Positions 16,591 through 33,083 of a stretch of 64,000 nt of DNA are shown one piece after another. The notes below the pieces were generated by a model. That model saw nothing but the letters and a program-made list of their open reading frames with translations, had not been told where the DNA came from and searched no databases. Made by a program: the position numbers and the translations under genes. The first letter of the stretch is position 1. Each line of letters opens with the position of its first letter. The DNA comes from an uncultured Bacteroidota bacterium (GTDB lineage Bacteria; Bacteroidota; Bacteroidia; AKYH767-A; 2013-40CM-41-45): the NCBI GenBank assembly GCA_963775555.1, contig CAVZJJ010000003.1, positions 116,813 through 180,812 of the forward strand, given 5' to 3'.

Positions 16591-19017
16591 ACAAACCCCA
16601 TTTTTTCAAGATGTTCATTCACCTTCTTTTCTAAAGTTTCTACTTCCCTATTTAATAAAGGCAAAGGAGATTCATAACGCTCCACCAAGTCTTTAAGACG
16701 TTGTGTCAATCGCTGGCTGATGCTGTCCATTTCTGTTTTGAGGGATTGTTCGATGGCCGTCATCCATTTATTGTCTACTACTAAGTCTCTGATTTCGTTT
16801 TCTGTCAGGGTCTTATAGCGGAGAAATGTTTTTTTATCCAATTCTTCGGAAGCGGTTTTTAATTTATTGCCTAGCACGCTCTGCTCTTCGCTAAGGGTCA
16901 AATACTGTTGAAGTACCTTTATTTCTTCTCTGAAAGATTTATCGTTTTGAATTTCCTTCAATCTTTTCTGAACAGTTACTTTGTTTACCTTATCGTAGTC
17001 CGCAAAGAAACCTTCTTCTCCACTGTGTTCTTCTTCCAGTTCCGTAATTTGTCCGGAAAGCATTTCTTTATCAGCTTCCATCTTCTCAATTGCTTTTTTC
17101 TCCGTGTAAAAATACCGGTCAATAATGAGTGAAGGTGGAACGAGATCACATGTCCAACCCTTATCTACTTTTTTTCCCTGTTTGTTTTCAATGAGGATAC
17201 GATAGGGTTCGGCCTTCCAGCCATCAACTGTGATCAGATAAGAATCATCCTGCATCACATCATGCCAGTAATTCATGAGGTGCTGGTAAACATCGTATTT
17301 ATCAATGAGTGCCTTTCCCGAATAAGTTTTTAGAATATCTTCCGCAATAACATGAATGGTTTGCTTCGGTTTAAATCCTTTCTTCAGTCCTTTCAGAGAT
17401 TCAGTATTCCGCTTTTTCCAGTTGTTGAACAGCTTATCCATTTCCTTGATAAAACCGGTAAATTCAGGATGATTGAAGATGGCCTGTTTCACATGTTCCT
17501 TATCCACTTTTGGCTGAGAGTAATTCTTCCGCTTACTTTTTCCGAATAAATCATTTTTCAAAGAAGGGTAAACATCCCAATACTCTTGCAAAGCATCAAT
17601 GTCGGCATTAGGAATGTCACCCACTAGATGCGCTTCTACGTCTTGTATGTCTTCTTCTTCCTGGCTGTCGATGTAGCGTGGAATGTTCAGGTTGAAATCA
17701 TTTTTCGGGTCGGAAATTTCTTTGAGCGAAATAAATCGGCTGAACTTAGGAACTTCCTTTTGATTGTTAAAGACATCAACAATCTTATGGATGTCCTGCT
17801 CACGAAGACGGTTCTTATTTCCGTCTTTCATGAATCCCTTTCCGGCATCAATGATAAAAATTCCTCTCTTACTTAACGGAAGCGACAATTGCTGTGAAGC
17901 ATTTTCCTTATCAATCACAATGATGCATGCAGGAATGCCTGTACCATAAAATAAGTTAGGTGGCAAACCAATGATTCCTTTGATCAGGCATTTCTCCAAA
18001 ATGTTTTTTCGAATCTCTGCTTCCGCTCCACCCCGGAAAAGAACACCATGAGGAAGAATAATAGCGCCCTTACCGGTACTCTTCAATGATTTAATAATAT
18101 GAAGCAGGAAAGCATAATCGCCGTTCTTGTCAGGAGGAATTCCATAACCAAGAAAACGTCCGTAATGATCATCCCCGGGGTTGAATCCGGTGCTCCAGTT
18201 CGATAGAGAGAATGGAGGATTGGATGTTACGTAATCAAAAGTCTCGAAGTTCGCCTTTTTTATTTTCAAAGAGAGGATTGGATAAGGTACTCTGACCTTT
18301 ACGGATTTCGGCAGTTGGACAATTGTGCAGAATCATATTCATTCGTGCAAGCGCCGCTGTAGAAACGTCTTTCTCTTGTCCGTATAATGTTCCTTTGCCA
18401 TTTGCCTCATCCACAACTTTCAACAGCAGAGATCCCGAGCCGCAAGTGGGATCATAAAAAGAAGTCTTATTGCTACCTGCAGTAACCCTTAACACTTTCG
18501 CCATCACACGGCTCACTTCAGAAGGAGTATAAAACTGACCCTTACTCTTGCCGCTCTCAGTTGCGAAGTGACGCATCAAATACTCGTAGGCATCCCCCAA
18601 AATATCATCCCCTTCCGCACGGTTCTTAGAAAAATCAAGCGCAGGGTTTTCGAAAATACTCACCAGATCACTGAGACGATCAATCATCTCCTTGCCCTTG
18701 CCGATCTTTTCCTCATCATTGAAACTTACTACATCAATGACATTTTCCAGATCGTTTGCTTTTGCAAGAGCCCCGATGGCAGTATCAATTTTTTCACCGA
18801 TATCTTTATTACCCTTCAACTTCGCAATATCACGAAAGCCCCCGCCTTTGGGAATAACGATCACCGCATTTGGATCATCTGCATACTTATCGGAAACATA
18901 TTTAACGAACAACAGGACAAGAACATAATCCTTGTACATGCTGGCATCCATGCCACCACGTAATGCATCGCAGGATGCCCATAGGGAACTGTATAATTCG
19001 GATTTTTTGATGGCCAT
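16581..19017 (-). pseudogene. hsdM: Type I R-M N6-adenine DNA methyltransferase subunit, split into 260-aa and 562-aa ORFs by a frameshift in an A6 run
   Basis: The N-terminal ORF has the HsdM_N region and motif I FYDPTCGSGSLL. The second ORF begins just before motif IV (NPPF). Removing one base from the T6/A6 run at 18256-18261 gives continuous ...NPLFENKKANFETFDYVTSNPPF. Confidence 0.85.
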
Positions 19018-19980: not shown

Positions 19981-21105
19981 TTTTGTAAGTTCAAGTAATA
20001 AGTGCAATTTTTTGTGAGAAGACTTGGTTAGGTGTTTGATAATTAAATTTTCTTACTGGTCTGTTATTAATTATTGATTCTACTATTTGAACATCTATGT
20101 CAGGTACTTTCAATAGGTCTGTTTTCTTTGGGAAGAATCTGCGGATTAATCCTATTCTGTTTTCTACAGTTCCTTTATCTTGTGAGGTATAAGGCCGGGT
20201 AAAATAGGTAGTAGCATTCAGCGATTTTCCTATCGATTCATGTTTACTAAATGCCTTATCGTTGTCAAATGTAAGTGTTTTAACAATTCCCTTTAATGAG
20301 ATTAATCTACGTTTAATTTCGCGCTTTATTATGATGCTGTCTTTCCCGGCTAACCTTGTGAGTTTGGTTTTCAGAGATGCCCGATCCGTCATTACAAGCA
20401 AAGCTCCCTGATGATTTTTTCCCATCATCAGATCTACTTCAAAATCTCCCAAGCGCTTTCTTTTATCTACGATTTTCGGACGATTTTCAATAGACACTCG
20501 GTTTGGAATAATACCCCGGCTATCTCTTCTTAATCCGCGCTTTCTTCTTCTACGTCCATGTGCTAAGTGCATATACAGTTTCTTGTCTTGTCTATCTTCC
20601 TTACAATTACTTTGCTTACAACGCCAAATCCACTTGTAAATGGTCTCGTGGCTGACAAAATCCCCTAACTCATTTTTGCCAACGACATGAATTAATTCCG
20701 GACTGAATTTTATACTCTTCATCCAGAGACGCGTCCACACTTTCATTTCATCGGTAAATCTTTCTTTTTTCATTTTGATTTGATGCCGATGATCCGTTTT
20801 CCGTTGTGCATTTTCAGCTGTGTAAACCAAAGCTCCTCTTCCACGTTTTGGTATATTCCGTTTAAGTTCTCGACTTATCGTGGATGGCGATTTATTTACA
20901 ATTTTCGCAATATCCTTTTGAGCGATTCCGCTTTTTAATAAGGCTTCAATCTGATATCTTTGTTCAGAGTTGAGATGGGTGTAGTTTTTTGACATAAGCA
21001 ATCCAAAGATGAAGCTTCTCAGCTTAACTTTCACCTGGGACAATTAAAAGTCCCAAGGTGAAAGTTTAAATCTTTAAATTGCACTTATTGGTTGAACACG
21101 GCTTT
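19981..21105 (-). mobile_element. IS30-family insertion sequence, copy 1 (1125-bp block shared with copy 2)
   Basis: This block equals 25623-26747 at a constant offset of 5642 nt in every stretch compared. Imperfect terminal inverted repeats are GTTCAAGTAATAAGTGCAATTT and GTTCAACCAATAAGTGCAATTT. Confidence 0.85.
19991..21043 (-). CDS. IS30-family transposase
   Basis: 350 aa with an N-terminal HTH (SEQRYQIEALLKSGIAQKDIAKIV) and a DDE core (FEVDLM..., TFDNDKAF..., ENRIGLIRRF). The translation is identical to the copy at 25633-26685. Confidence 0.9.
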   Translation of the reverse strand: MSQVKVKLRSFIFGLLMSKNYTHLNSEQRYQIEALLKSGIAQKDIAKIVNKSPSTISRELKRNIPKRGRGALVYTAENAQRKTDHRHQIKMKKERFTDEMKVWTRLWMKSIKFSPELIHVVGKNELGDFVSHETIYKWIWRCKQSNCKEDRQDKKLYMHLAHGRRRRKRGLRRDSRGIIPNRVSIENRPKIVDKRKRLGDFEVDLMMGKNHQGALLVMTDRASLKTKLTRLAGKDSIIIKREIKRRLISLKGIVKTLTFDNDKAFSKHESIGKSLNATTYFTRPYTSQDKGTVENRIGLIRRFFPKKTDLLKVPDIDVQIVESIINNRPVRKFNYQTPNQVFSQKIALIT

Positions 21106-22496: not shown

Positions 22497-22757
22497 TTAA
22501 AGTTTAAGGTAATACCCAAGCAAAAGGGGATAAATCTGAACGGCAATAACAATGAAAGGGAATAAAAAATCTTTCGCATCATACGCAGGAAGGACTTCAA
22601 CAGCAGATCCCAAGTCAATGAACCCAAGTTTTCTAAGTTCAAGATTCCCAAACAACAAATTAACGATACGTATCGGATGTTCTTTAGGAATCATTTCATC
22701 CAAACATACCGGAAAAAGTAATGCTTGCTTACGGTTAATACCTATCTGAAAAGTCAT
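22497..22757 (-). pseudogene. Relic of an IS5/IS1182-family transposase N-terminal (InsH_N/DUF772-like) region
   Basis: The 86-aa ORF (...LFPVCLDEMIPKEHPIRIVN...LELRKLGFIDLGSAVEVLPAYDAKDFL) matches the conserved N-terminal transposase segment (P.DHP.R.i...l.l..lg....GrpaYdP). No DDE domain follows it. Confidence 0.5.
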
Positions 22758-22977: not shown

Positions 22978-23532
22978 TTATCTTAATTGTTGTTCGATGT
23001 TGTCTAAGTCTGAAATTATTTGTTGTCGTTGTGTGTTGTTAAACCTATCGTAAAACGAATGTCCGCCATTTCGTAGAATATATATAACTCTTAAAATTAT
23101 TTCTCTCCAATAATGTTTGTAAGAGTCTTGGCATTCTTGGTTGTTTATAGATGTTTGAGTGCTAAGTAGAAATTCATATTCCTCCAAATATTTTCTGGCT
23201 GTTTCCGTTGATAAATTATTGGTTATAATTTCAAAGTAAGTGCAAAAAAGATTGAAGCAGTAGTTGTGAAGGAAGCCATATTTAACAACATATTCTCGTC
23301 TTGCATTTCTCGCTGTTAAGTCAAAGAACTCATCAGAATATGGGCTATAAAAAATATTATTTACTCTGACCTGAAAATTAAATGTTCCTGCAAGGAGTAA
23401 ACTCTCGTTTGGTTGTGGATAATTGCCGTCAAACGAAATATCAAGATTTGTATCTAAAAAACGAACGAAACGGTTATCCAAATTTCTAATAACATCGTTT
23501 TGCACTAATAAAAATTGTTCTTTAATTGTCAT
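22978..23532 (-). CDS. Hypothetical protein (184 aa)
   Basis: Clean ORF lying 8 nt downstream of the 249-aa ORF on the same strand. No motif recognised. Confidence 0.45.
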   Translation of the reverse strand: MTIKEQFLLVQNDVIRNLDNRFVRFLDTNLDISFDGNYPQPNESLLLAGTFNFQVRVNNIFYSPYSDEFFDLTARNARREYVVKYGFLHNYCFNLFCTYFEIITNNLSTETARKYLEEYEFLLSTQTSINNQECQDSYKHYWREIILRVIYILRNGGHSFYDRFNNTQRQQIISDLDNIEQQLR

Positions 23533-23540
23533 ATGTTGTT

Positions 23541-24290
23541 TTATTTTGAAATTGTTTCAAATTTTGTTTCTCTTTCTTTTTTAATTGCGTCACGTTGCTC
23601 TTTTGTAAACTCAAAATTTTCAATTGTTTGGTCAGAATGTAATTTGTCAATAATCCATTTTTCAACTTCATACATTAACTCTGAAATTTTCTGTTCATTT
23701 TCCTGTTGACGATTTAATGTGTTTTGAAGTTTAGTTTCATTATATGGTTGGTAATTATTTCCACTATATGCTAATTCTGTTCTTCGCAATCTTAAATTTT
23801 CTCGCATAAGTGAATTTAATCGTATCATTTTTTGAGATAAGAAATAGCCGATGTGAATAGTTTCGGTAAATATTTGTGTTCTTATCTCGTTTAGTTCATT
23901 ATCTATGTCAACAAACTCTTTTACGTCTGTTGTTTCTGAGAATGACCAAGATTTTTGATACTTGAAATACATTTTTTGACCTATCTGCCAACATTCAATT
24001 TTTTTGTCAATTGATTTCGTTCCGATATGAGTAAGCAAGTTGTTTCTTACATTTTCGTCACGAAAAAACAGTCCGATTTGAGTTTGAAGTTTTTCAGATA
24101 GATTACTTTCGTATAGAGCAATTGATTTATTTGAAGCTTCTTCTGCGATTGATTTGGTTGCGTATTTTAGATATGTTATTAAAACTCCAATAGCAATAGT
24201 AAGTCCTATTACGATTAGTAAAGATAACTTGCCTTGTGTGTTCTGAACCTTTTCTAATAGTTCAAATATGTCCTTTGCTTCTACGTTCAT
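23541..24290 (-). CDS. Hypothetical N-terminally membrane-anchored, helix-rich protein (249 aa)
   Basis: One predicted TM helix (LSLLIVIGLTIAIGVLITYL) followed by charged helical sequence. No family recognised. Confidence 0.45.
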   Translation of the reverse strand: MNVEAKDIFELLEKVQNTQGKLSLLIVIGLTIAIGVLITYLKYATKSIAEEASNKSIALYESNLSEKLQTQIGLFFRDENVRNNLLTHIGTKSIDKKIECWQIGQKMYFKYQKSWSFSETTDVKEFVDIDNELNEIRTQIFTETIHIGYFLSQKMIRLNSLMRENLRLRRTELAYSGNNYQPYNETKLQNTLNRQQENEQKISELMYEVEKWIIDKLHSDQTIENFEFTKEQRDAIKKERETKFETISK

Positions 24291-24439: not shown

Positions 24440-24660
24440 CTGTGAATAAACGAAATAAAAACAGCTTGAGTAGCTGTTTTTTGAACTCTAAGATACTCCT
24501 GATGTCAGCTGTTGTACCAAAAAACTTTAGTACATCTCTCGGATCATACGCAAGACGGCCTTCAACAGCAGATCCTGACTCAATGCATCCTAGTTTTTTG
24601 AGATCAAGATTCCTTTATAAACTAATCAATGATGCCTTCTGGATGCTTTCACCGGTGGCT
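24440..24660 (-). pseudogene. Second, more degenerate relic of the same IS5/IS1182-type transposase N-terminal region
   Basis: The minus-strand translation reads ...NLDLKKLGCIESGSAVEGRLAYDPRDVLKFF, with stops and frame changes just upstream (HPEGIID-stop). The nucleotide core CATACGCA.GA.GG.CTTCAACAGCAGATCC is shared with 22570-22610. Confidence 0.4.
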
Positions 24661-24698: not shown

Positions 24699-25523
24699 TT
24701 AGAATCCTGCATCTGTTAGAAATCTATTTGAGTTTGATAATGCTATTCGTAGAACTGCTCTCCAATAGTTGTCTCCCTTACAGCCTTTCATACCAGCAGC
24801 TTCATTGGTCAATTGATTTTGTATCTGTGCTCTTGTAAGCAAACCAACTGATTGCAAAATTGCAATCCGCACATCAGAAATTTCGCTATTACTTCTGTCT
24901 TTGTATCTTTCGGCTAATTTTAGTTTGGTAAAATGTTCTATTATGATAGTTCTCATTCCTACTGGAATTACCGCAGCATTAAGAGTGAAGCTTGCTTGAG
25001 GAATATTATTTCGGAAAATAATTGAACAGTTTAAATATTGAACATTTGGTAAAGTGTCGTAATAGAAATTAATTATTCTACGATTACCTGTTAACAACCA
25101 TTCTTCACCTTTTTCCGTATTGCATGTTGCACAACATGGAATCAAGTTAATTGATAAAGCTGAAAATTCAGGAAAATCGTCTTGAGGTAGATAATGGTCA
25201 AATGTCTTAGGTTCTCCAATGTTGCAGTATTGACATTCTCCCTTCAGCAAATCGCTTTGTCTATTTTTTATTTTTGCTTTTAAGTTTGAAAGTGCAATTG
25301 ACTTTGAATAGCACCCTTTTAATAAATCAATATTCGGTGCTACAAAAGTGGAAGCAGGAATCGTTTCAAGAGAGTTTGGAACTGTCCGATTTATGTATTC
25401 TGTAACACGATTTGAAACAGCTTGACGAATCGCTTGCAAAGATGCTCGTGATGCAATGTTTTTATTATTTACAATGTCATCCCAGTAACTCATTTTTCGT
25501 GTAAGCGGAATTAGATTCTTCAT
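24699..25523 (-). CDS. HNH endonuclease of the kind paired with ABC ATPases (Septu PtuB-like)
   Basis: 274 aa. HNH core GECQYCNIGEPKTFDHYLPQDDFPEFSALSINLIPCCATCNTEKGEEW (CxxC...DH...NL.P.C..CN). Same strand as the ATPase and separated from it only by the IS30 copy. Confidence 0.6.
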   Translation of the reverse strand: MKNLIPLTRKMSYWDDIVNNKNIASRASLQAIRQAVSNRVTEYINRTVPNSLETIPASTFVAPNIDLLKGCYSKSIALSNLKAKIKNRQSDLLKGECQYCNIGEPKTFDHYLPQDDFPEFSALSINLIPCCATCNTEKGEEWLLTGNRRIINFYYDTLPNVQYLNCSIIFRNNIPQASFTLNAAVIPVGMRTIIIEHFTKLKLAERYKDRSNSEISDVRIAILQSVGLLTRAQIQNQLTNEAAGMKGCKGDNYWRAVLRIALSNSNRFLTDAGF

Positions 25524-25622
25524 TGACTGTTGTAAAGAGTTTGTAAATATATTTTCGCATTCAAACTTAGAGGCAAACTATTTTGTTCAAAAATGATAAT
25601 TAACTCCTTATAACTTTTTTTC

Positions 25623-26747
25623 TTTTGTAAGTTCAAGTAATAAGTGCAATTTTTTGTGAGAAGACTTGGTTAGGTGTTTGATAATTAAATTTTCTTACTG
25701 GTCTGTTATTAATTATTGATTCTACTATTTGAACATCTATGTCAGGTACTTTCAATAGGTCTGTTTTCTTTGGGAAGAATCTGCGGATTAATCCTATTCT
25801 GTTTTCTACAGTTCCTTTATCTTGTGAGGTATAAGGCCGGGTAAAATAGGTAGTAGCATTCAGCGATTTTCCTATCGATTCATGTTTACTAAATGCCTTA
25901 TCGTTGTCAAATGTAAGTGTTTTAACAATTCCCTTTAATGAGATTAATCTACGTTTAATTTCGCGCTTTATTATGATGCTGTCTTTCCCGGCTAACCTTG
26001 TGAGTTTGGTTTTCAGAGATGCCCGATCCGTCATTACAAGCAAAGCTCCCTGATGATTTTTTCCCATCATCAGATCTACTTCAAAATCTCCCAAGCGCTT
26101 TCTTTTATCTACGATTTTCGGACGATTTTCAATAGACACTCGGTTTGGAATAATACCCCGGCTATCTCTTCTTAATCCGCGCTTTCTTCTTCTACGTCCA
26201 TGTGCTAAGTGCATATACAGTTTCTTGTCTTGTCTATCTTCCTTACAATTACTTTGCTTACAACGCCAAATCCACTTGTAAATGGTCTCGTGGCTGACAA
26301 AATCCCCTAACTCATTTTTGCCAACGACATGAATTAATTCCGGACTGAATTTTATACTCTTCATCCAGAGACGCGTCCACACTTTCATTTCATCGGTAAA
26401 TCTTTCTTTTTTCATTTTGATTTGATGCCGATGATCCGTTTTCCGTTGTGCATTTTCAGCTGTGTAAACCAAAGCTCCTCTTCCACGTTTTGGTATATTC
26501 CGTTTAAGTTCTCGACTTATCGTGGATGGCGATTTATTTACAATTTTCGCAATATCCTTTTGAGCGATTCCGCTTTTTAATAAGGCTTCAATCTGATATC
26601 TTTGTTCAGAGTTGAGATGGGTGTAGTTTTTTGACATAAGCAATCCAAAGATGAAGCTTCTCAGCTTAACTTTCACCTGGGACAATTAAAAGTCCCAAGG
26701 TGAAAGTTTAAATCTTTAAATTGCACTTATTGGTTGAACACGGCTTT
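25623..26747 (-). mobile_element. IS30-family insertion sequence, copy 2, inserted in the last codons of the ATPase gene
   Basis: Same 1125-bp block as 19981-21105. The final ~12 codons and the stop of the ATPase ORF (26708-26747) lie inside this block. Confidence 0.85.
25633..26685 (-). CDS. IS30-family transposase
   Basis: 350-aa translation identical to the product of 19991-21043. Confidence 0.9.
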   Translation of the reverse strand: MSQVKVKLRSFIFGLLMSKNYTHLNSEQRYQIEALLKSGIAQKDIAKIVNKSPSTISRELKRNIPKRGRGALVYTAENAQRKTDHRHQIKMKKERFTDEMKVWTRLWMKSIKFSPELIHVVGKNELGDFVSHETIYKWIWRCKQSNCKEDRQDKKLYMHLAHGRRRRKRGLRRDSRGIIPNRVSIENRPKIVDKRKRLGDFEVDLMMGKNHQGALLVMTDRASLKTKLTRLAGKDSIIIKREIKRRLISLKGIVKTLTFDNDKAFSKHESIGKSLNATTYFTRPYTSQDKGTVENRIGLIRRFFPKKTDLLKVPDIDVQIVESIINNRPVRKFNYQTPNQVFSQKIALIT

Positions 26748-28498
26748 GATAAGGTTTTCAGAAATTCTCTGTAATACTCATCATGATTTATTGTATGAAA
26801 TATTTGTTCAGTAATTGTATTTAGATTTTCTCCAAATGTTTCTATGCCAAGCCCTCGGACACTTGGACTATTTTCCATTCTCTCAATAACAATAATATCT
26901 TTTGATGGAACTTCTTGAATTATCTGCGGTGAGTGAGTTGAAATTATTGCATAGGAGTCAAACTTCTTTAAAATTCTGTTTACAACATTGATAAAAAGAG
27001 AAATGCTGTTGGGATGTAAATGAGTTTCGGGTTCGTCAAAGAGGAGTAAAGATTCATTTGTAATGAATGCCAGCACCTCCGCCAAAATGAGAATCATAAT
27101 TATTTGCCCTGAACTGTATTTTGAAAAACCATCTTCGTCATAAAGTGAAAACTCTTTTGTGCTAAACTCAATGAAATCTTCGTCCAATATTTCTGAAGCT
27201 ATTTCATCTGAAAGAACTAACGATAGATACTTCCCGAAAAGTTGAACTCTGTCCGACTTCTTTAAAGCAGCAAACGCTTTAGTAACTCTTGTTTGGATTT
27301 GATGCTCGGTTAAAAATCCTTTCTCACTTTGAAAACCGCAATAGTAATAGCTGTAAGTTTTGGTTTGATTCGGTTTTGGAAACCTGTCAAACAAACTGTA
27401 TGAAATTGCCATTACTCGGCTAAATGGGGGAACATACTTGGTGGAAAACTCTCCTTGTTGTTCGTGTCCACTAAGTGTTGAAGCTAACTTTCCGATATAT
27501 TGCGTTTTACCTGTTCCATTTTTTCCAATGATAACTTTTATTCTGAATGGTAAACTTTCCTTTTCAGTAAAATCAAATTTTATTTTGTGTTTATCAGTTG
27601 CATTTCCAATCAATGTTGAAAATGTAAACTGAAAAGTATTTTCAACTTTTATGTTATTGTAGATTCGTTTCCCTTCTCGTAATGCCTTCTGTGCTTCGCT
27701 ACTTCTTAGCAATGAGGTTTGAAAACCACTCTCATGTTCAAATGATTCAAGTATGCCTCTGTTTGTTGCCAAGTCATTTACCACATCAAGATAATGGTCA
27801 GCAGTTTCTTTCGCAATATCCTTTCTGAGATTTACATAGTAGCTATTTGATTGACCTAATGAACAAAAATTATTATCCAACGATGTAAATGTTCCAGGAA
27901 GTTCACCATTACTTTCTGCTTTGTTATAAAACTTTGCAGTTCCAATGCTTGTAAACTTTTTTCCTGACAAATAGTAAACAATCTCATATTGCGTTTTGAA
28001 TCCGTAATCATCCCAATTATCTTTTTTAAAAACAAAACATGGAAATAGATGATAACCCATTTTAAACTCCTCTGCTGAATAAAAGGGAATCTCTTTTCCA
28101 GTGAAAAGGAGCTTATCGTTCTTGAAAATTTCCTTTAAAGAATCAAGGTTATTTATTCTTGAAATTATTGAACGATAAGCACCTTTATTTTTTATTTCAA
28201 ACGGTTCAAATATTTTATCCCACTTTATTTTTAAGGTCTTGCCGTCTTGCTTATTTTCAGTAACTGTTCCTGTGGCATGAATTAAAAGAATAGAGATTGT
28301 TTTATCATTTTCTTTTCTTGTGTAAGTTGTCTTAGCTGCAATTCTTGAACCTACAGGAACTGAATTTACTCTATCTAAATATTTATCATCAAAACCATTT
28401 TCCCAAATGCCTCTTTGAAGGAATCGCACTAATTGATTCTCTGGTACGCTGTCCTTCCAAGTGAAACCTACACAGTAGTATTGAATATTGTCTGCCAT
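26708..28498 (-). CDS. ABC/SMC-like (AAA_15/AAA_21-type, PtuA-like) ATPase with ~315-aa uncharacterised N-terminal region; C-terminal tail replaced by IS30 sequence
   Basis: Walker A IIGKNGTGKT (res 323-332), signature-like SSGQ, Walker B LLLFDEPETHLHP, H-loop ISTHSP. The start lies 6 nt after the pAgo stop. Confidence 0.7.
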   Translation of the reverse strand: MADNIQYYCVGFTWKDSVPENQLVRFLQRGIWENGFDDKYLDRVNSVPVGSRIAAKTTYTRKENDKTISILLIHATGTVTENKQDGKTLKIKWDKIFEPFEIKNKGAYRSIISRINNLDSLKEIFKNDKLLFTGKEIPFYSAEEFKMGYHLFPCFVFKKDNWDDYGFKTQYEIVYYLSGKKFTSIGTAKFYNKAESNGELPGTFTSLDNNFCSLGQSNSYYVNLRKDIAKETADHYLDVVNDLATNRGILESFEHESGFQTSLLRSSEAQKALREGKRIYNNIKVENTFQFTFSTLIGNATDKHKIKFDFTEKESLPFRIKVIIGKNGTGKTQYIGKLASTLSGHEQQGEFSTKYVPPFSRVMAISYSLFDRFPKPNQTKTYSYYYCGFQSEKGFLTEHQIQTRVTKAFAALKKSDRVQLFGKYLSLVLSDEIASEILDEDFIEFSTKEFSLYDEDGFSKYSSGQIIMILILAEVLAFITNESLLLFDEPETHLHPNSISLFINVVNRILKKFDSYAIISTHSPQIIQEVPSKDIIVIERMENSPSVRGLGIETFGENLNTITEQIFHTINHDEYYREFLKTLSKPCSTNKCNLKI

Positions 28499-28504
28499 AA
28501 TATT

Positions 28505-29956
28505 TTACATGTAAAAACTATATTTCAATTGCATCTCATCATCGGGGTCAAGATATTTTAAAATCTCTCCCACATTTCTTGCACACTCAATTGTTATTGG
28601 AAATTTTCGGTCAAACTGTGTATTATTCCAATTCATTTTAGTCAATGCTAAAATTTCATCACAAATCAAATTGGGTGATTCATCATACTTAGCTAACTTA
28701 ATTTCAAGTGGACTTGGAATGTATTTCCCCGGGTAAGTTTCGTAGTATGGAACAGAACCTCTTGAATACAAAACATGATGATTGTCTGCTAATGTCAATT
28801 GTGTTCCTCTCATTGGCGGATAAATGCCGCTACGATAAAGCCGAACATCTGATTGCTGAATTGAAACCAAATCAATTTGGTTAATGTGTAATTCTTTTGC
28901 TGCCTGACTAAAACCAAAAATTTCATCTCCACTAAAGTTTGATGTCTTGTGCATCACCAATCGTTTAGGAAATATTTTTACTGCATCATAATATTCTTTG
29001 AGTGAAAACGAAAGTAAATTGAACGCTTGCTCTTGCGATAGGTGAGGCGTTCTATCATTTTTCTTTAGTAGAATTTCTTCGCCACGAAGAATAACGCCTT
29101 TTCCAAGTTCATTAAATATTTGTGCAATGCTTGTTTGAGTTGTGCTTCTATCTCTGCTTTTGAAAAAACTAATTCCTGCATAGCAAGTTGTTTCTGCAAT
29201 GTCTTTTCTAATCATTGCCCAAGGTGTTCCCGATGCTTTGTAATACAATGCTGTGAAAAAATTCCAAGCTATTGTTGCAGCATCTTGCATTTCTGCCGTT
29301 GGCTTTACAATTCTATCTCTTACAATTTGAATTGGAACATTGTATTGCATGGCCTTTGCCTTCAGATAGCGTCTGAAATTTTGCTCCTTTTTTGAAACTT
29401 CTTCTTCATCAAAATCCTTTTCGGGAATTTCCTTTTCACCTTCTTCCTCATCTTCGTCTGTTGGTTTTACTTCCTCTTGAATGTAGGTAATGAAGTTTTC
29501 ACTTAACACACATAAAATAATGTCGGGCTTTTTATTTTTTGAAAGAAATTTTATTTCACCAAGAATAAGTTCAGCAATCTCTTTTATTCGGTCCTCCAAA
29601 TTATCTGTGTTGCGAATTATGTCGTCAAACTCTGAATTATTTAATCTTCTCAAATAAGTTTCATCATAAACGATTTCACTTTTGAAACCAACTTCTTTAT
29701 TAAAACCACAAAAGTTTAAATGCAAGTTTGGATGAGGGTTTCTGCTTTCCTTTCCCCCAATATGTTTTTTACATGATTCAATCCATTCAAGAACTTTGTC
29801 AATGCTTTCTCCTTTGCCAATTATTCCAACGGTAATTTTTTCAGGTCTTACTTGGTTTATGTCAAATGGATTAAAATTGAAAATACCTGCCTTCGGACAA
29901 ATGTGTTGGTCTTGTCCGAATTGTAAGGAAGGTTCTTCTATGTATCTTAGTTTCAT
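28505..29956 (-). CDS. Short prokaryotic Argonaute (MID-PIWI only), catalytically inactive
   Basis: 483 aa. MID pocket-like Y197-LKA-K201...PIQ210. PIWI signature QDAATIAWNFFTALYYKASGTPW. C-terminal FPITIECARNVGEILKY. The catalytic Asp positions read GIS and HKTS. The start overlaps the upstream stop (TAATG). Confidence 0.85.
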   Translation of the reverse strand: MKLRYIEEPSLQFGQDQHICPKAGIFNFNPFDINQVRPEKITVGIIGKGESIDKVLEWIESCKKHIGGKESRNPHPNLHLNFCGFNKEVGFKSEIVYDETYLRRLNNSEFDDIIRNTDNLEDRIKEIAELILGEIKFLSKNKKPDIILCVLSENFITYIQEEVKPTDEDEEEGEKEIPEKDFDEEEVSKKEQNFRRYLKAKAMQYNVPIQIVRDRIVKPTAEMQDAATIAWNFFTALYYKASGTPWAMIRKDIAETTCYAGISFFKSRDRSTTQTSIAQIFNELGKGVILRGEEILLKKNDRTPHLSQEQAFNLLSFSLKEYYDAVKIFPKRLVMHKTSNFSGDEIFGFSQAAKELHINQIDLVSIQQSDVRLYRSGIYPPMRGTQLTLADNHHVLYSRGSVPYYETYPGKYIPSPLEIKLAKYDESPNLICDEILALTKMNWNNTQFDRKFPITIECARNVGEILKYLDPDDEMQLKYSFYM

Positions 29957-31458
29957 TATTCAAAAAATGAGTTGTCAAAAAGTTCGTTGTCTTCTTTTAA
30001 ATCTGTCGGTGGTGCGTCAATTTTTTCAGGCAATACTTTTACTGGCTTCCAAGTTTTTTCTTCAAGTTTTGGAGAAAGCGTTAATGATGTGTGTGGACTT
30101 ATTTTCAAATAAGGATATTCAACAGTAAATAAATTCACATGAGAAAAGTAATAACCAAAGAATCTGAAATAATTGAAAACAGCATTGTTGTTTTCTAATC
30201 TCTTCAGTCCTGACAAGTAAGCAGATTCAAATCTGCTTGTGTGATAACCTCCAGGATTTGTAAAACTCCAAGTTGGATTCAAAACCAAAAACCATTCATC
30301 AGAAATATTTAAGAAAGAACTCTTGAACGCAAGATGTCGGAAGCAAATAATGTGTCCTTCTTTTTTATTGTGCATTTCAAAAATCACGGACTTTGTTGAT
30401 TCATTTTTGCCTTTCCATCTTACTTGTTTCTGGTTAGGTACTTTTCGATTGGCGGCAAAACGGAAAATTTTACTCTTACCATACCATTCAATTTCTTTTA
30501 TTATACAAAACTCTGTAAGTGTGTTACGAAGCAAATGTTTGAAAACAATTTTGCTGGCTTCGCTTCCTTCGTAAAACTCTTTGCAATCAATAGGCGTGAT
30601 TGTTCCCTTATCTACAATTTTTCTGAACGGTTCTTTTTCGTCATACAGGTTTTTGAAAGTGTAAAGACAATTTTCATGTAGCAGCCAATCAAATGCTTTA
30701 CTCTCATGCTTTCTTAACGCTCTCTTTACATACTTTGCCTCTCTCATTGTCTTTATTGGCTTCTTGTTGATTGTAAATAAGTAGTCATTCAATTCAGCCA
30801 ATATTTTTTCTCTATCAATATCCAATTCTGCTTTGTAGAATTTTTCAGGGAAACTAATCGGTAAAAGGTTGGGAGAAATGTCTTCGGGTTTGTTATCCAA
30901 ATAACCGCCAACATATTCCTTTTTCCGCAATTCAATTTGAACATCAGAAAATTCTTGCTGATATATTTTTGCAAGTGTTTGAAGTTTAGGTGTTGAACTT
31001 ATGTCTTGGATCTTTTGAAGCAGAATCTCTCTATCAATTACATGGTCTTTGGTGTTGAAAGTAAAACCATCAGGAATAAGTTTTGCCAATTTACTGTCTT
31101 TGTATTTTTCTTTCTTTTCCGTTAGGATGTAGAAATAAATAACATCAAAATACTTATGTAGTTCGTGGCCGAAAAACTTCCCAAGCGTAGTTTCAATTTT
31201 AGAATAGTCGCTTGTTGCTGTGATTTGAAAAGCAACTCTGCTTTTAAAGTCAGCTAAGTCAATTGCAGGAAAATTTTTCTTCTGTGTTGAATTTAAGTTT
31301 TCAAGATTCAAGCCGAAGGTTTCATTCAAAACAGGAATGAGAAAACTTTCAGCATGTATGTTGATGTCGTATTTGTTTGCTGCATTAAAGCCCTCCACTT
31401 CCAAGACAAACCTTGCAGCATAAGTGTTGATTTTATTTATAAACTCTATCCGATTCAT
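29956..31458 (-). CDS. pAgo partner protein: N-terminal SMEK/PD-(D/E)XK-like domain fused to a presumed APAZ region
   Basis: 500 aa, immediately upstream of and translationally coupled to the short pAgo. Res 30-90 (DINIHAESFL...FPAIDLAD...RVAFQITATSD..KIETTL) match my recollection of the SMEK-domain pattern and resemble a restriction-endonuclease-like core. No TIR (DVFISH-type) or SIR2 (GAG.S..GIP) motif is present. The APAZ assignment rests on size and context, not on a recognised motif. Confidence 0.55.
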   Translation of the reverse strand: MNRIEFINKINTYAARFVLEVEGFNAANKYDINIHAESFLIPVLNETFGLNLENLNSTQKKNFPAIDLADFKSRVAFQITATSDYSKIETTLGKFFGHELHKYFDVIYFYILTEKKEKYKDSKLAKLIPDGFTFNTKDHVIDREILLQKIQDISSTPKLQTLAKIYQQEFSDVQIELRKKEYVGGYLDNKPEDISPNLLPISFPEKFYKAELDIDREKILAELNDYLFTINKKPIKTMREAKYVKRALRKHESKAFDWLLHENCLYTFKNLYDEKEPFRKIVDKGTITPIDCKEFYEGSEASKIVFKHLLRNTLTEFCIIKEIEWYGKSKIFRFAANRKVPNQKQVRWKGKNESTKSVIFEMHNKKEGHIICFRHLAFKSSFLNISDEWFLVLNPTWSFTNPGGYHTSRFESAYLSGLKRLENNNAVFNYFRFFGYYFSHVNLFTVEYPYLKISPHTSLTLSPKLEEKTWKPVKVLPEKIDAPPTDLKEDNELFDNSFFE

Positions 31459-31707: not shown

Positions 31708-31738
31708 CAAAAAAATAAAGCCGTCTAAAAGACGGCTT
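31708..31738 (-). terminator. Rho-independent-type terminator between the small peptide ORF and the pAgo operon
   Basis: 8-bp stem AAGCCGTC/GACGGCTT (31718-31725 / 31731-31738) with a 5-nt loop. On the minus strand it is followed by TTATTTTTTTGT. Confidence 0.6.
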
Positions 31739-31770
31739 CGTTGTTCTTTTCGCTGAATTTCACCAGATCA

Positions 31771-31857
31771 TCAGTAGCTAATGCTAGAAGGTGTACAGCC
31801 TCCAACCTTATCAACGACAGGAGTAGAATCAATATGAATCAAATTTGTTGTTTTCAT
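31771..31857 (-). CDS. 28-aa peptide ORF (MKTTNLIHIDSTPVVDKVGGCTPSSISY) with strong Shine-Dalgarno and downstream terminator
   Basis: ATG at 31857-31855 is preceded by AAGGAGGTG (31861-31869). The stop is TGA at 31773-31771, and the terminator hairpin lies ~30 nt downstream. There is a Gly-Gly motif before an 8-residue Cys-containing tail. Coding status is unproven. Confidence 0.35.
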   Translation of the reverse strand: MKTTNLIHIDSTPVVDKVGGCTPSSISY

Positions 31858-32144: not shown

Positions 32145-33083
32145 ATGAATATTAAAACAATAAGTGATTCTACTCGACTTTCCATATATGACAATCTTCA
32201 GTTGATTATCGAAAATAGATTTGAAAGAAGAGATATTAAGGAATTGATATTCTCGTTTAGATCACTGTTGACGGATGAATTAAATCTTCGCGAAGTCGCA
32301 GATATAATTGCTCACCCTGACGAAAAAAGTAAAGGACCTACTCATATTCATGTAAATTATGTATATGCTGTACATGAACAAATAACACAAAGCGCATTAC
32401 AAAAAACACCTATCGATTTTAAAGTATTTCAACAAGAATCATTTCAAGCGATTCTTCATGGGATAAAACTATACGCCGATACAGAAATTTTGTCTAAGAC
32501 TGATTTTACTGTGAACTCAGCTACCGAGTTTCTTAAAAGGGAATACAGAAAAAACACAGACGAAAACTCATATAGACTAAAGGACCTCACAAAATTTGGA
32601 AAAGCCGCTAAACTTCTCAAATTTTTATTGAACACAGAATTCCCTTATCGGTTACCAATAACTGATCAAATTATATTTGATGATTTAATAATGTGTATAC
32701 GTCAATTTATCCTGCATTTCGATTTAGGAAATAAATTTAGAATCTCAGATATAATCGACAAAAAAGAAGATATACTACTTTGCATTTTAACAATGTTTCA
32801 TGACATAAAGTATAAATTATATGACAATAAAATTGGGTCAACATTTATTTCTTCAAACGATTTTCAGAGGTTTAAAGAAGGACTACCAGGCAGTATGTAT
32901 CGATTAAGTATTTATGCTTGCATCCCAAATGATTCATTTGAAAAAGGGATAATCTTTCCACTTTTTCGAACTAATTTAATCGCCTCCAAATATATTTGCG
33001 TCCCTAATTTAATAGGGGCACACTTAAATTTTATTCCCTTTGATGCAAGACGAAATTCCTCCGGGAATCTTATGTTGGAATAA
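32145..33083 (+). CDS. Hypothetical protein (312 aa)
   Basis: Clean ATG-initiated ORF, divergent from the pAgo cluster. No motif recognised. Confidence 0.45.
   Translation: MNIKTISDSTRLSIYDNLQLIIENRFERRDIKELIFSFRSLLTDELNLREVADIIAHPDEKSKGPTHIHVNYVYAVHEQITQSALQKTPIDFKVFQQESFQAILHGIKLYADTEILSKTDFTVNSATEFLKREYRKNTDENSYRLKDLTKFGKAAKLLKFLLNTEFPYRLPITDQIIFDDLIMCIRQFILHFDLGNKFRISDIIDKKEDILLCILTMFHDIKYKLYDNKIGSTFISSNDFQRFKEGLPGSMYRLSIYACIPNDSFEKGIIFPLFRTNLIASKYICVPNLIGAHLNFIPFDARRNSSGNLMLE

What the first reader, a model, noticed from the sequence alone, without database searches (positions are those of the whole stretch)
24699..31458. Short-pAgo cluster with an unusual partner set: SMEK/nuclease-like-APAZ + inactive MID-PIWI Argonaute + ABC ATPase + HNH nuclease (pAgo joined to a Septu-like pair)
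Seen in the sequence: three minus-strand genes are packed like one operon, with a stop/start overlap TAATG at 29954-29958 and a 6-nt gap at 28499-28504. The 483-aa product has MID pocket-like residues (Y197, K201, Q210) and the PIWI signature QDAATIAWNFFTALYYKASGTPW. It has Ser/Thr where the catalytic Asp residues should be (GIS, HKTS), so it is a short inactive pAgo. The upstream 500-aa protein sits where APAZ-effector partners sit. The downstream 596-aa protein is an ABC-type ATPase (GKNGTGKT, SSGQ, LLLFDEPETHLHP, STHSP). Once the IS30 copy is mentally removed, this ATPase is followed about 85 nt later, on the same strand, by a CxxC...DH...NL.P.C..CN HNH protein. That is the PtuA/PtuB (Septu) gene-pair logic. 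Established knowledge: the characterised short-pAgo systems (SPARTA TIR-APAZ, SPARSA SIR2-APAZ, SPARDA DREN-APAZ) are two-gene or fused systems. Inference: this is either a four-component system in which pAgo sensing is coupled to an ATPase/HNH module, or two defence systems stacked in one transcription unit. I do not recognise either arrangement as described.
Basis: partly seen in the sequence, partly recalled or inferred. Interest (0 to 1): 0.9.

Follow-up and report, generated by a model that had tools for sequence, protein, structure and literature searches.

The report
Argonaute defence stacked beside Septu-like pair
Two separate, already-catalogued bacterial anti-invader systems (a short Argonaute with its nuclease partner, and a Septu-like ATPase/HNH nuclease pair) sit back to back in a defence island, and comparison with about 90 related loci shows they are independent modules rather than one new four-part machine.

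Summary
Profile, PDB and literature comparisons identify the first two as a SMEK/Mrr-APAZ protein plus an inactive short pAgo. This is the Kordia jejudonensis "SPARMA"-type system of clade S2B. The last two are PADLOC candidate system PDC-M01A/B, a PtuA-like ABC ATPase plus an HNH nuclease (Septu-like).

The IS30 element (25623-26747, 3-bp TSD) lies inside the ATPase gene. Removing it restores a 618-aa ATPase whose stop overlaps the HNH start (ATGA).

The "four-component system" reading is not supported:
- Of 69 informative homologous pAgo loci, only one (L093) has this ATPase/HNH pair, and one other (L053) has an unrelated canonical Septu.
- Of 7 other ATPase/HNH loci, only L093 has a pAgo.
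- Homology breaks exactly at the start and stop codons that bound each module.
- The nearest pAgo relatives of both four-gene loci lack the pair.
- The pAgo-linked ATPases show no partner-specific insertions.
- The ATPase carries its own EVE/YTH-like reader domain, shared with McrB proteins.

The best reading is two autonomous systems stacked in one probable transcription unit, with the Septu-like one recently disabled by IS30. Interest is low to moderate.

The parts
31717..31739 (-). Terminator-like hairpin (10-bp stem, then a T-run) upstream of the block. It probably ends transcription of a small upstream ORF and so marks the upstream limit of the transcription unit.
   Evidence: scan; sequence read.
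29956..31458 (-). SMEK/Mrr-like nuclease-APAZ partner of the pAgo (500 aa). The nuclease domain is about aa 2-172 and the APAZ domain about aa 231-476.
   Evidence: Pfam SMEK_N 4.8e-43. PADLOC Aga_REase-PNTD1-PNTD2 6e-157. NCBIfam SMEK_N. PDB 26bh, 'Mrr domain from Kordia jejudonensis Mrr-APAZ pAgo', E = 9e-55 over aa 2-172, and the APAZ part matches DREN-APAZ chains at about 1e-16. Present directly upstream of the pAgo in 76 of 80 genome loci.
28505..29956 (-). Short, catalytically inactive pAgo (MID-PIWI, 483 aa). Its start overlaps the APAZ stop by 1 nt (TAATG).
   Evidence: PADLOC pAgo_I 2.2e-182, full length. End-to-end alignment to solved short pAgos 9om4, 9jsb, 9qbp and 9qbl, E = 1e-74 to 2e-63. 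R195, K199, Q210, K240, S263, H336, K337 and S339 invariant in 83 sequences.
26748..28498 (-). 5' part (codons 1-584) of a PtuA-like ABC ATPase (PDC-M01A). The annotated 596-aa ORF runs on to 26708 through 12 IS-encoded codons.
   Evidence: PADLOC PDC-M01A 9.1e-137 and PtuA 4.7e-65. Pfam AAA_21/AAA_15. The model of the 85%-identical intact homologue has PtuA chains as its top ~39 PDB fold matches. IS boundary.
28079..28498 (-). N-terminal PUA-like (EVE/YTH-type) domain of the ATPase (aa 1-140), a putative modified-base reader.
   Evidence: AF2 pLDDT 81.6. Foldseek against PDB: 2p5d 1e-5, 1wmm 1.5e-4, then a YTH domain and EVE domains. The same domain, 56-61% identical, sits on McrB-like AAA_5 GTPases in L081-L090. 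No Pfam or NCBIfam hit.
25623..26747 (-). IS30-family insertion sequence (about 1122 bp plus one copy of a 3-bp TTT target duplication). Transposase ORF at 25633-26685; 22-bp imperfect terminal inverted repeats at 25631-25652 and 26718-26739. It interrupts the ATPase gene.
   Evidence: 100% identical second copy at 19981-21105. Inverted repeats. NCBIfam transpos_IS30 3e-63. TSD inferred from homologue alignment.
25520..25622 (-). Displaced 3' remnant of the ATPase gene (last 33 codons plus the stop codon). The TGA overlaps the HNH ATG (ATGA).
   Evidence: Reconstruction. The C-terminus matches L093 and five other homologues.
24699..25523 (-). HNH nuclease (PDC-M01B, PtuB-like, 274 aa).
   Evidence: PADLOC PDC-M01B 1.8e-72. 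Pfam HNH 1.5e-4. Always 274 aa; overlaps the ATPase stop by 4 nt in six of the seven other loci and follows it after 2 nt in L100.
24457..24481 (-). Terminator-like hairpin 218 nt downstream of the HNH stop, the probable end of the transcription unit.
19981..21105 (-). Second, identical copy of the IS30-family element, in the same orientation.

Best explanation
The block consists of two autonomous defence modules placed head to tail inside a low-GC defence island. It is not one four-part system.

Module 1 (29956-31458 and 28505-29956) is a SPARMA/KjAgo-type short-pAgo system. By homology with KjAgo and SPARDA, the MID-PIWI protein and the APAZ domain form a heterodimer that loads a small guide RNA. 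When it recognises complementary invader DNA, it unleashes the SMEK/Mrr-like PD-(D/E)xK nuclease for collateral DNA degradation, giving an abortive-infection or anti-plasmid response. This mechanism is inferred from homology and was not tested here.

Module 2 is a Septu-like PtuA/PtuB pair (PADLOC PDC-M01). It comprises an ABC ATPase carrying its own N-terminal EVE/YTH-like reader domain, translationally coupled (ATGA) to an HNH nuclease. It probably senses modified or otherwise foreign nucleic acid by itself and licenses HNH cleavage (inferred).

The two modules were joined in an ancestor shared with locus L093. They are probably co-transcribed from a promoter upstream of the APAZ gene: the gap is 6 nt, no strong internal terminator is present, and hairpin terminators flank the block.

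In this genome a recent IS30 insertion cut off the last 34 residues of the ATPase, which form its two C-terminal helices, and uncoupled the HNH gene. In PtuA the C-terminal extension is the part that binds PtuB. Module 2 is therefore most likely inactive here, while module 1 is intact.
For: - Identity of the modules. Literature on SMEK-APAZ/KjAgo/SPARMA: PMC10810196, PMC12205087 and bioRxiv 10.1101/2025.04.08.647717.
- Independence, pAgo side: tblastn and HMM searches of 83 pAgo loci (52-95% identity) find the APAZ partner in 76 of the 80 genome-scan loci, this ATPase/HNH pair only in L093, and another Septu only in L053. 69 of the loci have at least 2.7 kb downstream.
- Independence, ATPase side: ATPase/HNH pairs at 69-81% identity sit behind type I R-M, Hachiman, an HTH gene and others with no pAgo.
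- Module boundaries: blastn homology stops exactly at APAZ-ATG/pAgo-stop or at ATPase-ATG/HNH-stop. Only L093 spans the junction.
- Phylogeny: in the APAZ+pAgo tree, the window is sister to L056 and L093 is sister to L002. Both sisters lack the pair.
- No co-option signature: no indels and only 3 fixed differences in the pAgo-linked ATPases, and none in the HNH proteins.
- The ATPase has its own reader domain.
- The slot downstream of the pAgo is filled by many other defence genes elsewhere: dGTPase, GajA, HsdR, McrB-like, Aga_Nuclease.
- Co-inheritance with L093: third-codon-position identity is 58-66% in all four genes.
- Terminators flank the block.
- IS disruption. The role of the PtuA C-terminal extension comes from PMC12819146. 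The lost helices are 589-599 and 605-616 in the model.
- The adjacency is not an assembly artefact: an independent Logan contig and L093 show the same order.
Against: - The 5-6-nt spacing has persisted through about 20% nucleotide divergence between the window and L093, so the linkage has been stable for some time.
- A second, independent pAgo-Septu adjacency exists in L053.
- Retron Ec78 shows that PtuAB pairs can be recruited by another sensor.
- No expression or interaction data exist. The promoter could not be located: the sigma-70 scan is not applicable to Bacteroidota, and the Bacteroidota motif is not enriched.
- The ATPase-side sample is small (7 loci).
Confidence: 0.85

Rival explanations
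1. Integrated four-component system. The pAgo/APAZ complex senses invader DNA and recruits or activates the ATPase/HNH pair as an additional effector, in the way type I-A retrons (Ec78/Eco7) co-opted Septu PtuAB.
For: - The gene spacing is operon-like: a 1-nt overlap, a 6-nt gap and a restored 4-nt overlap.
- The same order is present in L093 with similar divergence in all four genes.
- PtuAB co-option has a precedent.
- A second pAgo-Septu adjacency exists in L053.
Against: - Co-occurrence is 1 of 69 on the pAgo side and 1 of 7 on the ATPase side.
- The sister lineages of both four-gene loci lack the pair.
- The module boundaries are sharp.
- There are no partner-specific insertions and no exclusive clade, unlike retron-associated PtuA.
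- The APAZ protein already carries its own conserved nuclease effector.
- The ATPase carries its own sensor-like domain.
- The pAgo pair stays intact here although the ATPase is IS-disrupted.
Confidence: 0.04
2. Selected synergy without physical coupling. The two systems are independent machines, but their co-transcription is adaptive. For example, RNA-guided anti-plasmid sensing could combine with modification-dependent nuclease attack, or collateral DNA damage from one could trigger the other. The adjacency would then be maintained by selection.
For: - The junction has been retained over about 20% nucleotide divergence.
- Septu-type pairs were recruited independently next to this pAgo clade at least twice.
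- Many loci have some defence gene within 4-25 nt of the pAgo stop.
Against: - The partner in that slot is highly variable, and Septu-like pairs are no more frequent there than dGTPase or other systems.
- The pair was lost from, or never present in, the closest relatives.
- IS inactivation is tolerated here.
- No data on synergy exist.
Confidence: 0.1
3. Assembly or binning artefact: the adjacency of pAgo and ATPase is a chimeric join at a repeat.
For: The source is a metagenome-type assembly, and an IS copy, which is a repeat, lies inside the block.
Against: - The pAgo-ATPase junction is 1.75 kb away from the IS.
- An independent Logan assembly of another run has the same APAZ-pAgo-ATPase order and breaks only at the IS.
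- L093 has the uninterrupted four genes.
- The ATPase reading frame continues seamlessly across the excised IS.
Confidence: 0.01

Closest known systems
SPARMA / KjAgo system of Kordia jejudonensis (short pAgo + SMEK/Mrr-APAZ, clade S2B; Kim et al. 2020 BBRC as cited in PMC10810196 and PMC12205087; PDB 26bh)
   Same: - Same two-gene architecture with the APAZ partner upstream.
- The K. jejudonensis locus (L038) has a pAgo 71% identical and a partner 47% identical to those in the window.
- The Mrr/SMEK domain matches the solved Kj domain at 9e-55.
- Same inactive PIWI and same conserved R-K-Q-K MID pocket.
   Different: It is a different species and lineage, and nothing was tested biochemically here. 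In this window and in L093 the pair is followed 5-6 nt later by a second defence module, which the Kordia locus lacks.
SPARDA (short pAgo + DREN/DUF4365-APAZ; NbaSPARDA, XauSPARDA, TmuRE-Ago)
   Same: Homologous pAgo (E = 3e-69 to 2e-63 against chains from DREN/DUF4365-APAZ complexes 9jsb, 9qbp and 9qbl) and homologous APAZ (about 1e-16). The expected logic is RNA-guided DNA sensing that activates a collateral PD-(D/E)xK nuclease.
   Different: The effector domain is SMEK/Mrr-like, not DUF4365/DREN. The literature places the Kje-type system on a different branch.
Septu (PtuA/PtuB) and PADLOC candidate system PDC-M01
   Same: - An ABC ATPase with Walker A, signature, Walker B and H-loop motifs, plus a downstream overlapping HNH nuclease.
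- Best PADLOC models are PDC-M01A (9e-137) and PDC-M01B (2e-72), with PtuA at 5e-65.
- The top fold matches are PtuA from E. coli Septu and retrons.
- The pair occurs stand-alone in other genomes.
   Different: - It fails the NCBIfam PtuA equivalog cut-off (43 bits against 500).
- It carries an extra N-terminal EVE/YTH-like domain that is absent from the ~480-aa relatives and from the best profile.
- In this window it is truncated by IS30.
- PDC-M01 is a computational candidate, with no experimental paper found.
Type I-A retrons (Ec78/Eco7, Ec83) that co-opt PtuAB
   Same: A sensor module is encoded next to a PtuA/PtuB-like ATPase-HNH pair.
   Different: In retrons the association is clade-wide, and the co-opted PtuA has acquired partner-binding elements and clusters separately. 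Here the association is sporadic and the ATPase has no such features.
EVE-McrB type IV restriction GTPases
   Same: The N-terminal reader-like domain is 56-61% identical to that of the ATPase. EVE-McrB is common in Bacteroidetes (PMC7641849).
   Different: The motor is an AAA+ McrB GTPase, not an ABC ATPase. The partner nuclease is expected to be McrC, not HNH.

Membership tests
Short pAgo, clade S2B (SPARMA/KjAgo type) | MID-PIWI-only Argonaute of about 480 aa with no N or PAZ domains | tested here: met
   483 aa. Full-length match to PADLOC pAgo_I (1-483 against 1-455 of 455), and end-to-end alignment to solved short pAgos of 471-485 aa.
Short pAgo, clade S2B (SPARMA/KjAgo type) | PIWI catalytic DEDX residues substituted (inactive slicer) | tested here: met
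   S263 in G-I-S and T338 in H-K-T-S occupy the GxD and RDG motif positions. S263 is invariant (83 of 83), and position 338 is T or S in all 83. Solved short pAgos 9om4 and 9jsb have the same residues. The motif positions rest on established knowledge; no direct alignment to an active Ago was run.
Short pAgo, clade S2B (SPARMA/KjAgo type) | Conserved MID 5'-end binding pocket | tested here: met
   R195, K199, Q210 and K240 are invariant in 83 sequences and align with NbaAgo R183/K187/K240.
Short pAgo, clade S2B (SPARMA/KjAgo type) | Co-encoded APAZ partner immediately upstream, carrying a SMEK/Mrr-like nuclease domain | tested here: met
   1-nt overlap. PADLOC Aga_REase-PNTD1-PNTD2 6e-157. Pfam and NCBIfam SMEK_N. 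PDB 26bh 9e-55. The partner is present in 76 of 80 related loci.
Short pAgo, clade S2B (SPARMA/KjAgo type) | Guide-RNA-dependent recognition of target DNA that activates nuclease activity | not testable with these tools
   Biochemical property, known only for KjAgo and SPARDA relatives.
Septu-like PtuA/PtuB (PADLOC PDC-M01) | ABC/SMC-type ATPase with Walker A, signature motif, Walker B and H-loop | tested here: met
   GKNGTGKT (325-332), SSGQ (462-465), DEPETHLHP (488-496) and THSP (521-524), invariant or near-invariant in homologues. Pfam AAA_21/AAA_15.
Septu-like PtuA/PtuB (PADLOC PDC-M01) | Profile or fold membership in the PtuA family | tested here: inconclusive
   PADLOC PDC-M01A 9e-137 and PtuA 5e-65. 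The top ~39 Foldseek hits are PtuA chains, E down to 1e-11, but TM is only 0.3-0.47. The NCBIfam PtuA equivalog scores 43 bits against a cut-off of 500. It is best filed as PDC-M01, a PtuA-like sister group.
Septu-like PtuA/PtuB (PADLOC PDC-M01) | HNH nuclease gene immediately downstream, translationally coupled | tested here: met
   After IS removal the TGA overlaps the ATG. A 4-nt overlap is seen in six of the seven other loci, and L100 has a 2-nt gap. PDC-M01B 2e-72. The HNH motif is conserved.
Septu-like PtuA/PtuB (PADLOC PDC-M01) | Intact ATPase C-terminal extension, which holds PtuB in solved complexes | tested here: not met
   IS30 replaces residues 585-618 (helices 589-599 and 605-616 of the model) with 12 IS-encoded residues. 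The role of the extension is from PMC12819146. The family assignment stands, but this copy is probably non-functional.
Septu-like PtuA/PtuB (PADLOC PDC-M01) | Occurs as a stand-alone two-gene system | tested here: met
   L094, L097, L100, L102 and L103 have no pAgo nearby. L101 has no pAgo in the 181 nt upstream that its contig covers.
Co-opted multi-component system (retron type I-A-like logic) | Clade-wide co-occurrence of the sensor module with the ATPase/HNH pair | tested here: not met
   1 of 69 informative pAgo loci and 1 of 7 ATPase/HNH loci. The sister lineages lack the pair.
Co-opted multi-component system (retron type I-A-like logic) | The co-opted ATPase forms a distinct clade with partner-binding insertions | tested here: not met
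   No unique indels, 3 fixed substitutions in 617 residues, and none in the HNH. L093's ATPase is as close to L101's (84%), which has no pAgo in the 181 nt its contig covers upstream, as to the window's (85%). The criterion is from PMC12819146.
Co-opted multi-component system (retron type I-A-like logic) | Physical complex between sensor and ATPase/HNH | not testable with these tools
   No multimer prediction or biochemistry is available.
IS30 family insertion sequence | IS30-type DDE transposase, terminal inverted repeats and a 2-3-bp target duplication | tested here: met
   NCBIfam transpos_IS30 3e-63, above the cut-off of 80. 22-bp inverted repeats, 91% matched. TTT flanks both copies, and the 3-bp TSD restores the homologue-length frame.

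The most novel reading that the evidence does not exclude
The position immediately after the stop codon of this short-pAgo clade acts as a docking slot where promoter-less defence cassettes (Septu-like pairs, dGTPase, Aga_Nuclease and others) are captured into the pAgo transcription unit. In the window/L093 lineage, the captured EVE-PtuA-like/HNH pair cooperates functionally with the SPARMA-type pAgo, through co-regulation or synergy, or even as an early stage of PtuAB co-option like that seen in type I-A retrons.
Probability: 0.08. Interest if true: 0.65.

Novelty: new member of a known kind. Interest (0 to 1): 0.27.

Why it matters
If the four genes had formed one machine, it would have been the first Argonaute that signals to an ATPase-nuclease effector. 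The evidence argues against that.

What remains is still useful, though ordinary:
- A clean example of modular stacking of defence systems with codon-precise module boundaries.
- A natural IS30 knock-out of one module.
- An intact reference copy of the four-gene arrangement (L093) for anyone who wants to test additive versus synergistic protection.

The side observation that a Septu-like ATPase carries an EVE/YTH-type reader domain shared with McrB suggests a modification-sensing Septu variant. That may deserve its own follow-up.

Tried and rejected
1. Pfam gave no hit for the pAgo. PADLOC profiles and PDB sequence search were needed instead.
2. The metagenome scan with the ATPase returned almost only hits to its N-terminal domain on McrB-like proteins, so it gave no extra ATPase/HNH contexts. 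Contexts came instead from exact-protein look-ups.
3. phmmer against the PDB did not link the ATPase or HNH to PtuA/PtuB. The fold search did so for the ATPase. The HNH was not modelled.
4. The sigma-70 promoter scan was no better than shuffles (33 sites against 28 expected). The Bacteroidota -33/-7 motif was not enriched (3 matches against 4.15 expected). Promoter positions are therefore unresolved.
5. A 2-bp target duplication was rejected because it breaks the ATPase frame. No duplication gives 617 aa with a one-residue deletion relative to all homologues. A 3-bp duplication fits.
6. An assembly artefact was considered and rejected.
7. Literature searches for 'PDC-M01', 'Mrr-APAZ' and a pAgo-Septu link found no mechanistic work.

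Full report
**Observation**

The APAZ-type gene (29956-31458) and the pAgo gene (28505-29956) overlap by one base in TAATG. The pAgo stop is followed by AATATT and then the ATG of the ATPase.

One point of anatomy is wrong. The insertion sequence is 1125 bp (25623-26747), identical to a second copy at 19981-21105. It has 22-bp terminal inverted repeats at 25631-25652 and 26718-26739. Its end therefore lies 40 nt inside the 596-aa ORF, whose last 12 residues are IS-encoded.

Removing the IS and keeping one copy of a TTT duplication gives a 618-aa ATPase. Its TGA overlaps the HNH ATG (ATGA). Three results confirm this:
- Intact homologues are 614-622 aa and cover 100% of the restored sequence.
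- All of them read LS(K/Q)EKx(Y/F) across the insertion point.
- Locus L093 has the uninterrupted gene with the same 4-nt overlap.

**What the proteins are**

- The 483-aa protein matches PADLOC pAgo_I over its full length (2e-182). It aligns end to end with solved short pAgos of SPARDA-type complexes (1e-74 to 2e-63).
- Across 83 family members, R195, K199, Q210 and K240 are invariant and align with the MID residues mutated in NbaAgo.
- S263 (GIS) is invariant and position 338 (HKT) is always T or S, so the PIWI domain lacks the catalytic aspartates.
- The 500-aa protein is Aga_REase-PNTD1-PNTD2 (6e-157) with a SMEK_N domain. Residues 2-172 match PDB 26bh, 'the Mrr domain from Kordia jejudonensis Mrr-APAZ pAgo', at 9e-55.
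- The literature already describes this class. SMEK/Mrr-like APAZ partners belong to clade S2B. The Kordia system (KjAgo) forms a heterodimer that uses guide RNA against DNA and has weak collateral nuclease activity. It has been called SPARMA. The Kordia locus itself is among the homologous loci (L038: pAgo 71%, partner 47% identity).
- The ATPase and HNH proteins are the PADLOC candidate pair PDC-M01A/B (9e-137 and 2e-72), with PtuA models next best (5e-65).
- NCBIfam does not accept the ATPase as a PtuA equivalog (43 bits against 500). However, a good AF2 model of the 85%-identical intact homologue (pLDDT 84) has PtuA chains from E. coli Septu and from Ec78/Eco7/Ec83 retrons as its top ~39 PDB fold matches.
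- The IS is IS30-family.

**Is it one system or two?**

I collected 80 genome loci with pAgo homologues (52-95% identity) and three more through protein look-ups.

On the pAgo side:
- The APAZ partner is directly upstream in 76 of 80 loci. The four exceptions are hits truncated at the 5' end of the pAgo.
- By tblastn and by HMM search of all ORFs, this ATPase/HNH pair is present only in L093. A different, canonical Septu (PtuA 7e-100 plus a 238-aa HNH) follows the pAgo in L053.
- 69 loci have at least 2.7 kb of downstream sequence.
- What follows the pAgo elsewhere is a changing set of defence genes: dGTPase, GajA, HsdR, a McrB-like protein, a large helicase, 'Aga_Nuclease' and a PDC-M03B-like protein. 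They often start within 4-25 nt of the stop codon. In other loci a convergent gene or a hairpin follows.

On the ATPase side:
- The pair, always with a 274-aa HNH that overlaps the ATPase stop by 4 nt or (in L100) follows it after 2 nt, is found at 69-81% identity behind type I R-M plus DUF6932, 9-10 nt behind Hachiman HamB, behind an HTH gene, or at a contig start. None of these has a pAgo.

Boundaries and phylogeny:
- Nucleotide homology between the IS-free window and pAgo-only loci runs from the APAZ ATG to the pAgo stop and no further.
- Homology with ATPase/HNH-only loci runs from the ATPase ATG to the HNH stop and no further.
- Only L093 is homologous across the junction.
- In a tree of APAZ+pAgo, the window is sister to L056 (92% identity) and L093 is sister to L002. 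Neither sister has the pair.
- Between the window and L093, third-codon-position identity is similar in all four genes (58-66%). The two modules have therefore probably been linked since those lineages split, with repeated loss or exchange elsewhere.

**Test against the one known precedent for PtuAB co-option**

Type I-A retrons recruit PtuAB. There the association is clade-wide, and the recruited PtuA clusters separately and has gained partner-binding elements (PMC12819146).

Here the pAgo-linked ATPases have no unique indels and only three fixed substitutions. The HNH proteins have none. L093's ATPase is as close to that of L101 (84%), which has no pAgo coding sequence in the 181 nt its contig covers upstream, as to the window's (85%).

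The ATPase also has its own N-terminal domain (aa 1-140). It folds as a PUA-like EVE/YTH-type module (pLDDT 82; Foldseek hits 2p5d at 1e-5 and 1wmm, then YTH and EVE domains). It is 56-61% identical to the N-termini of McrB-like GTPases. In McrB that position holds the DNA-reading domain (PMC7641849). So the pair seems to carry its own sensor.

**Transcription and state of the locus**

Strong hairpin terminators lie upstream of the APAZ gene (31739-31717) and 218 nt downstream of the HNH gene (24481-24457). No strong one lies inside the block. Together with the 1-nt overlap, the 6-nt gap and the restored 4-nt overlap, this fits one transcription unit. Promoters could not be located.

The block lies in a low-GC island (about 9.7-35.4 kb) that also holds a type I R-M system, IS copies and an HTH_17 gene.

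The IS insertion is recent, since the two copies are identical. It removes the last 34 ATPase residues, which form the two C-terminal helices in the model. In PtuA the C-terminal extension forms the helical bundle that holds PtuB and is critical for toxicity. The Septu-like module is therefore probably inactive in this genome. That step is an inference.

**Verdict**

The gene identifications are right.

Both modules belong to catalogued kinds, so this is a new member of known kinds. The residual novel reading is functional synergy, or incipient co-option at a pAgo-3' docking slot. I give it about 8% probability.

Noticed in passing
window 28079-28498 (-); L081-L090: The first ~140 residues of the PtuA-like ATPase fold as a PUA-like EVE/YTH-type domain. 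They are 56-61% identical to the N-termini of McrB-like AAA+ GTPases from metagenomes. A reader domain seems to have been shuffled between type IV restriction and a Septu-like system. An EVE-ABC-ATPase fusion is not among the common EVE architectures listed in PMC7641849.
   Followed up: partly
L053 9586-11791: A canonical Septu (PtuA 509 aa, PADLOC 7e-100, plus an overlapping 238-aa HNH protein) lies 133 nt downstream of a SMEK-APAZ/pAgo pair in a Cytophagales MAG. It is a second, independent pAgo-Septu adjacency with a different PtuA subfamily.
   Followed up: partly
L018, L025-L028, 5 nt after the pAgo stop: A recurring 283-aa gene matches the PADLOC model 'Aga_Nuclease' (2.4e-78). It is a recognised Argonaute-associated third gene, present in Sphingobacterium, Flavobacterium and Chryseobacterium loci and absent from the window.
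   Followed up: partly
L071, L037, L063, L069, L052, L049, L007 (downstream of pAgo): Different defence genes start within about 4-215 nt of the pAgo stop on the same strand: dGTPase, GajA, HsdR, a McrB-like protein, a PDC-M03B-like protein and a 1348-aa helicase. The position right after this pAgo looks like a hotspot for capturing other defence cassettes.
   Followed up: partly
L097 2654-8819: The same ATPase/HNH pair (78% identity) starts 9-10 nt after the Hachiman helicase gene (HamA/HamB upstream). The pair rides tightly behind other defence operons too.
   Followed up: no
window 19981-21105 and 25623-26747: Two 100% identical IS30-family copies in the same orientation, each flanked by TTT, bracket 4.5 kb. 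That segment includes the HNH gene, two unknown genes, a PAD_porph gene and IS remnants. It could act as a composite transposon, or as a substrate for deletion by recombination.
   Followed up: partly
window 16581-19017 (-): The type I R-M methylase HsdM is split into two overlapping ORFs: 18235-19017 carries HsdM_N and the start of N6_Mtase, and 16581-18269 carries the rest. This could be a frameshift, a pseudogene or a sequencing error. The longer ORF also has about 350 C-terminal residues with no Pfam match.
   Followed up: no
window 31771-31857 (-): A 28-codon ORF (MKTTNLIHIDSTPVVDKVGGCTPSSISY) is preceded by a strong AAGGAGGTG Shine-Dalgarno sequence, unusual for Bacteroidota. A 10-bp hairpin terminator follows it, just upstream of the APAZ gene.
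   Followed up: no
window 25562-25591 (-): A match to the Bacteroidota promoter consensus (TTTG...TAnnTTTG) lies about 39 nt upstream of the HNH ATG, inside the displaced 3' remnant of the ATPase gene. The motif count is not above chance in the window (3 against 4.15 expected), but the site could allow HNH expression after the IS insertion.
   Followed up: no
window 22978-24290 (-) and 32145-33083 (+): Three ORFs flanking the block (184, 249 and 312 aa) have no Pfam or PADLOC match. They sit in the defence island and could be uncharacterised defence or mobile-element genes.
   Followed up: no
window 22569-22648 and 24534-24613: An 80-nt direct repeat (83% identity) overlaps short ORFs that look like the N-terminus of a transposase. 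These are probably remnants of another IS.
   Followed up: no
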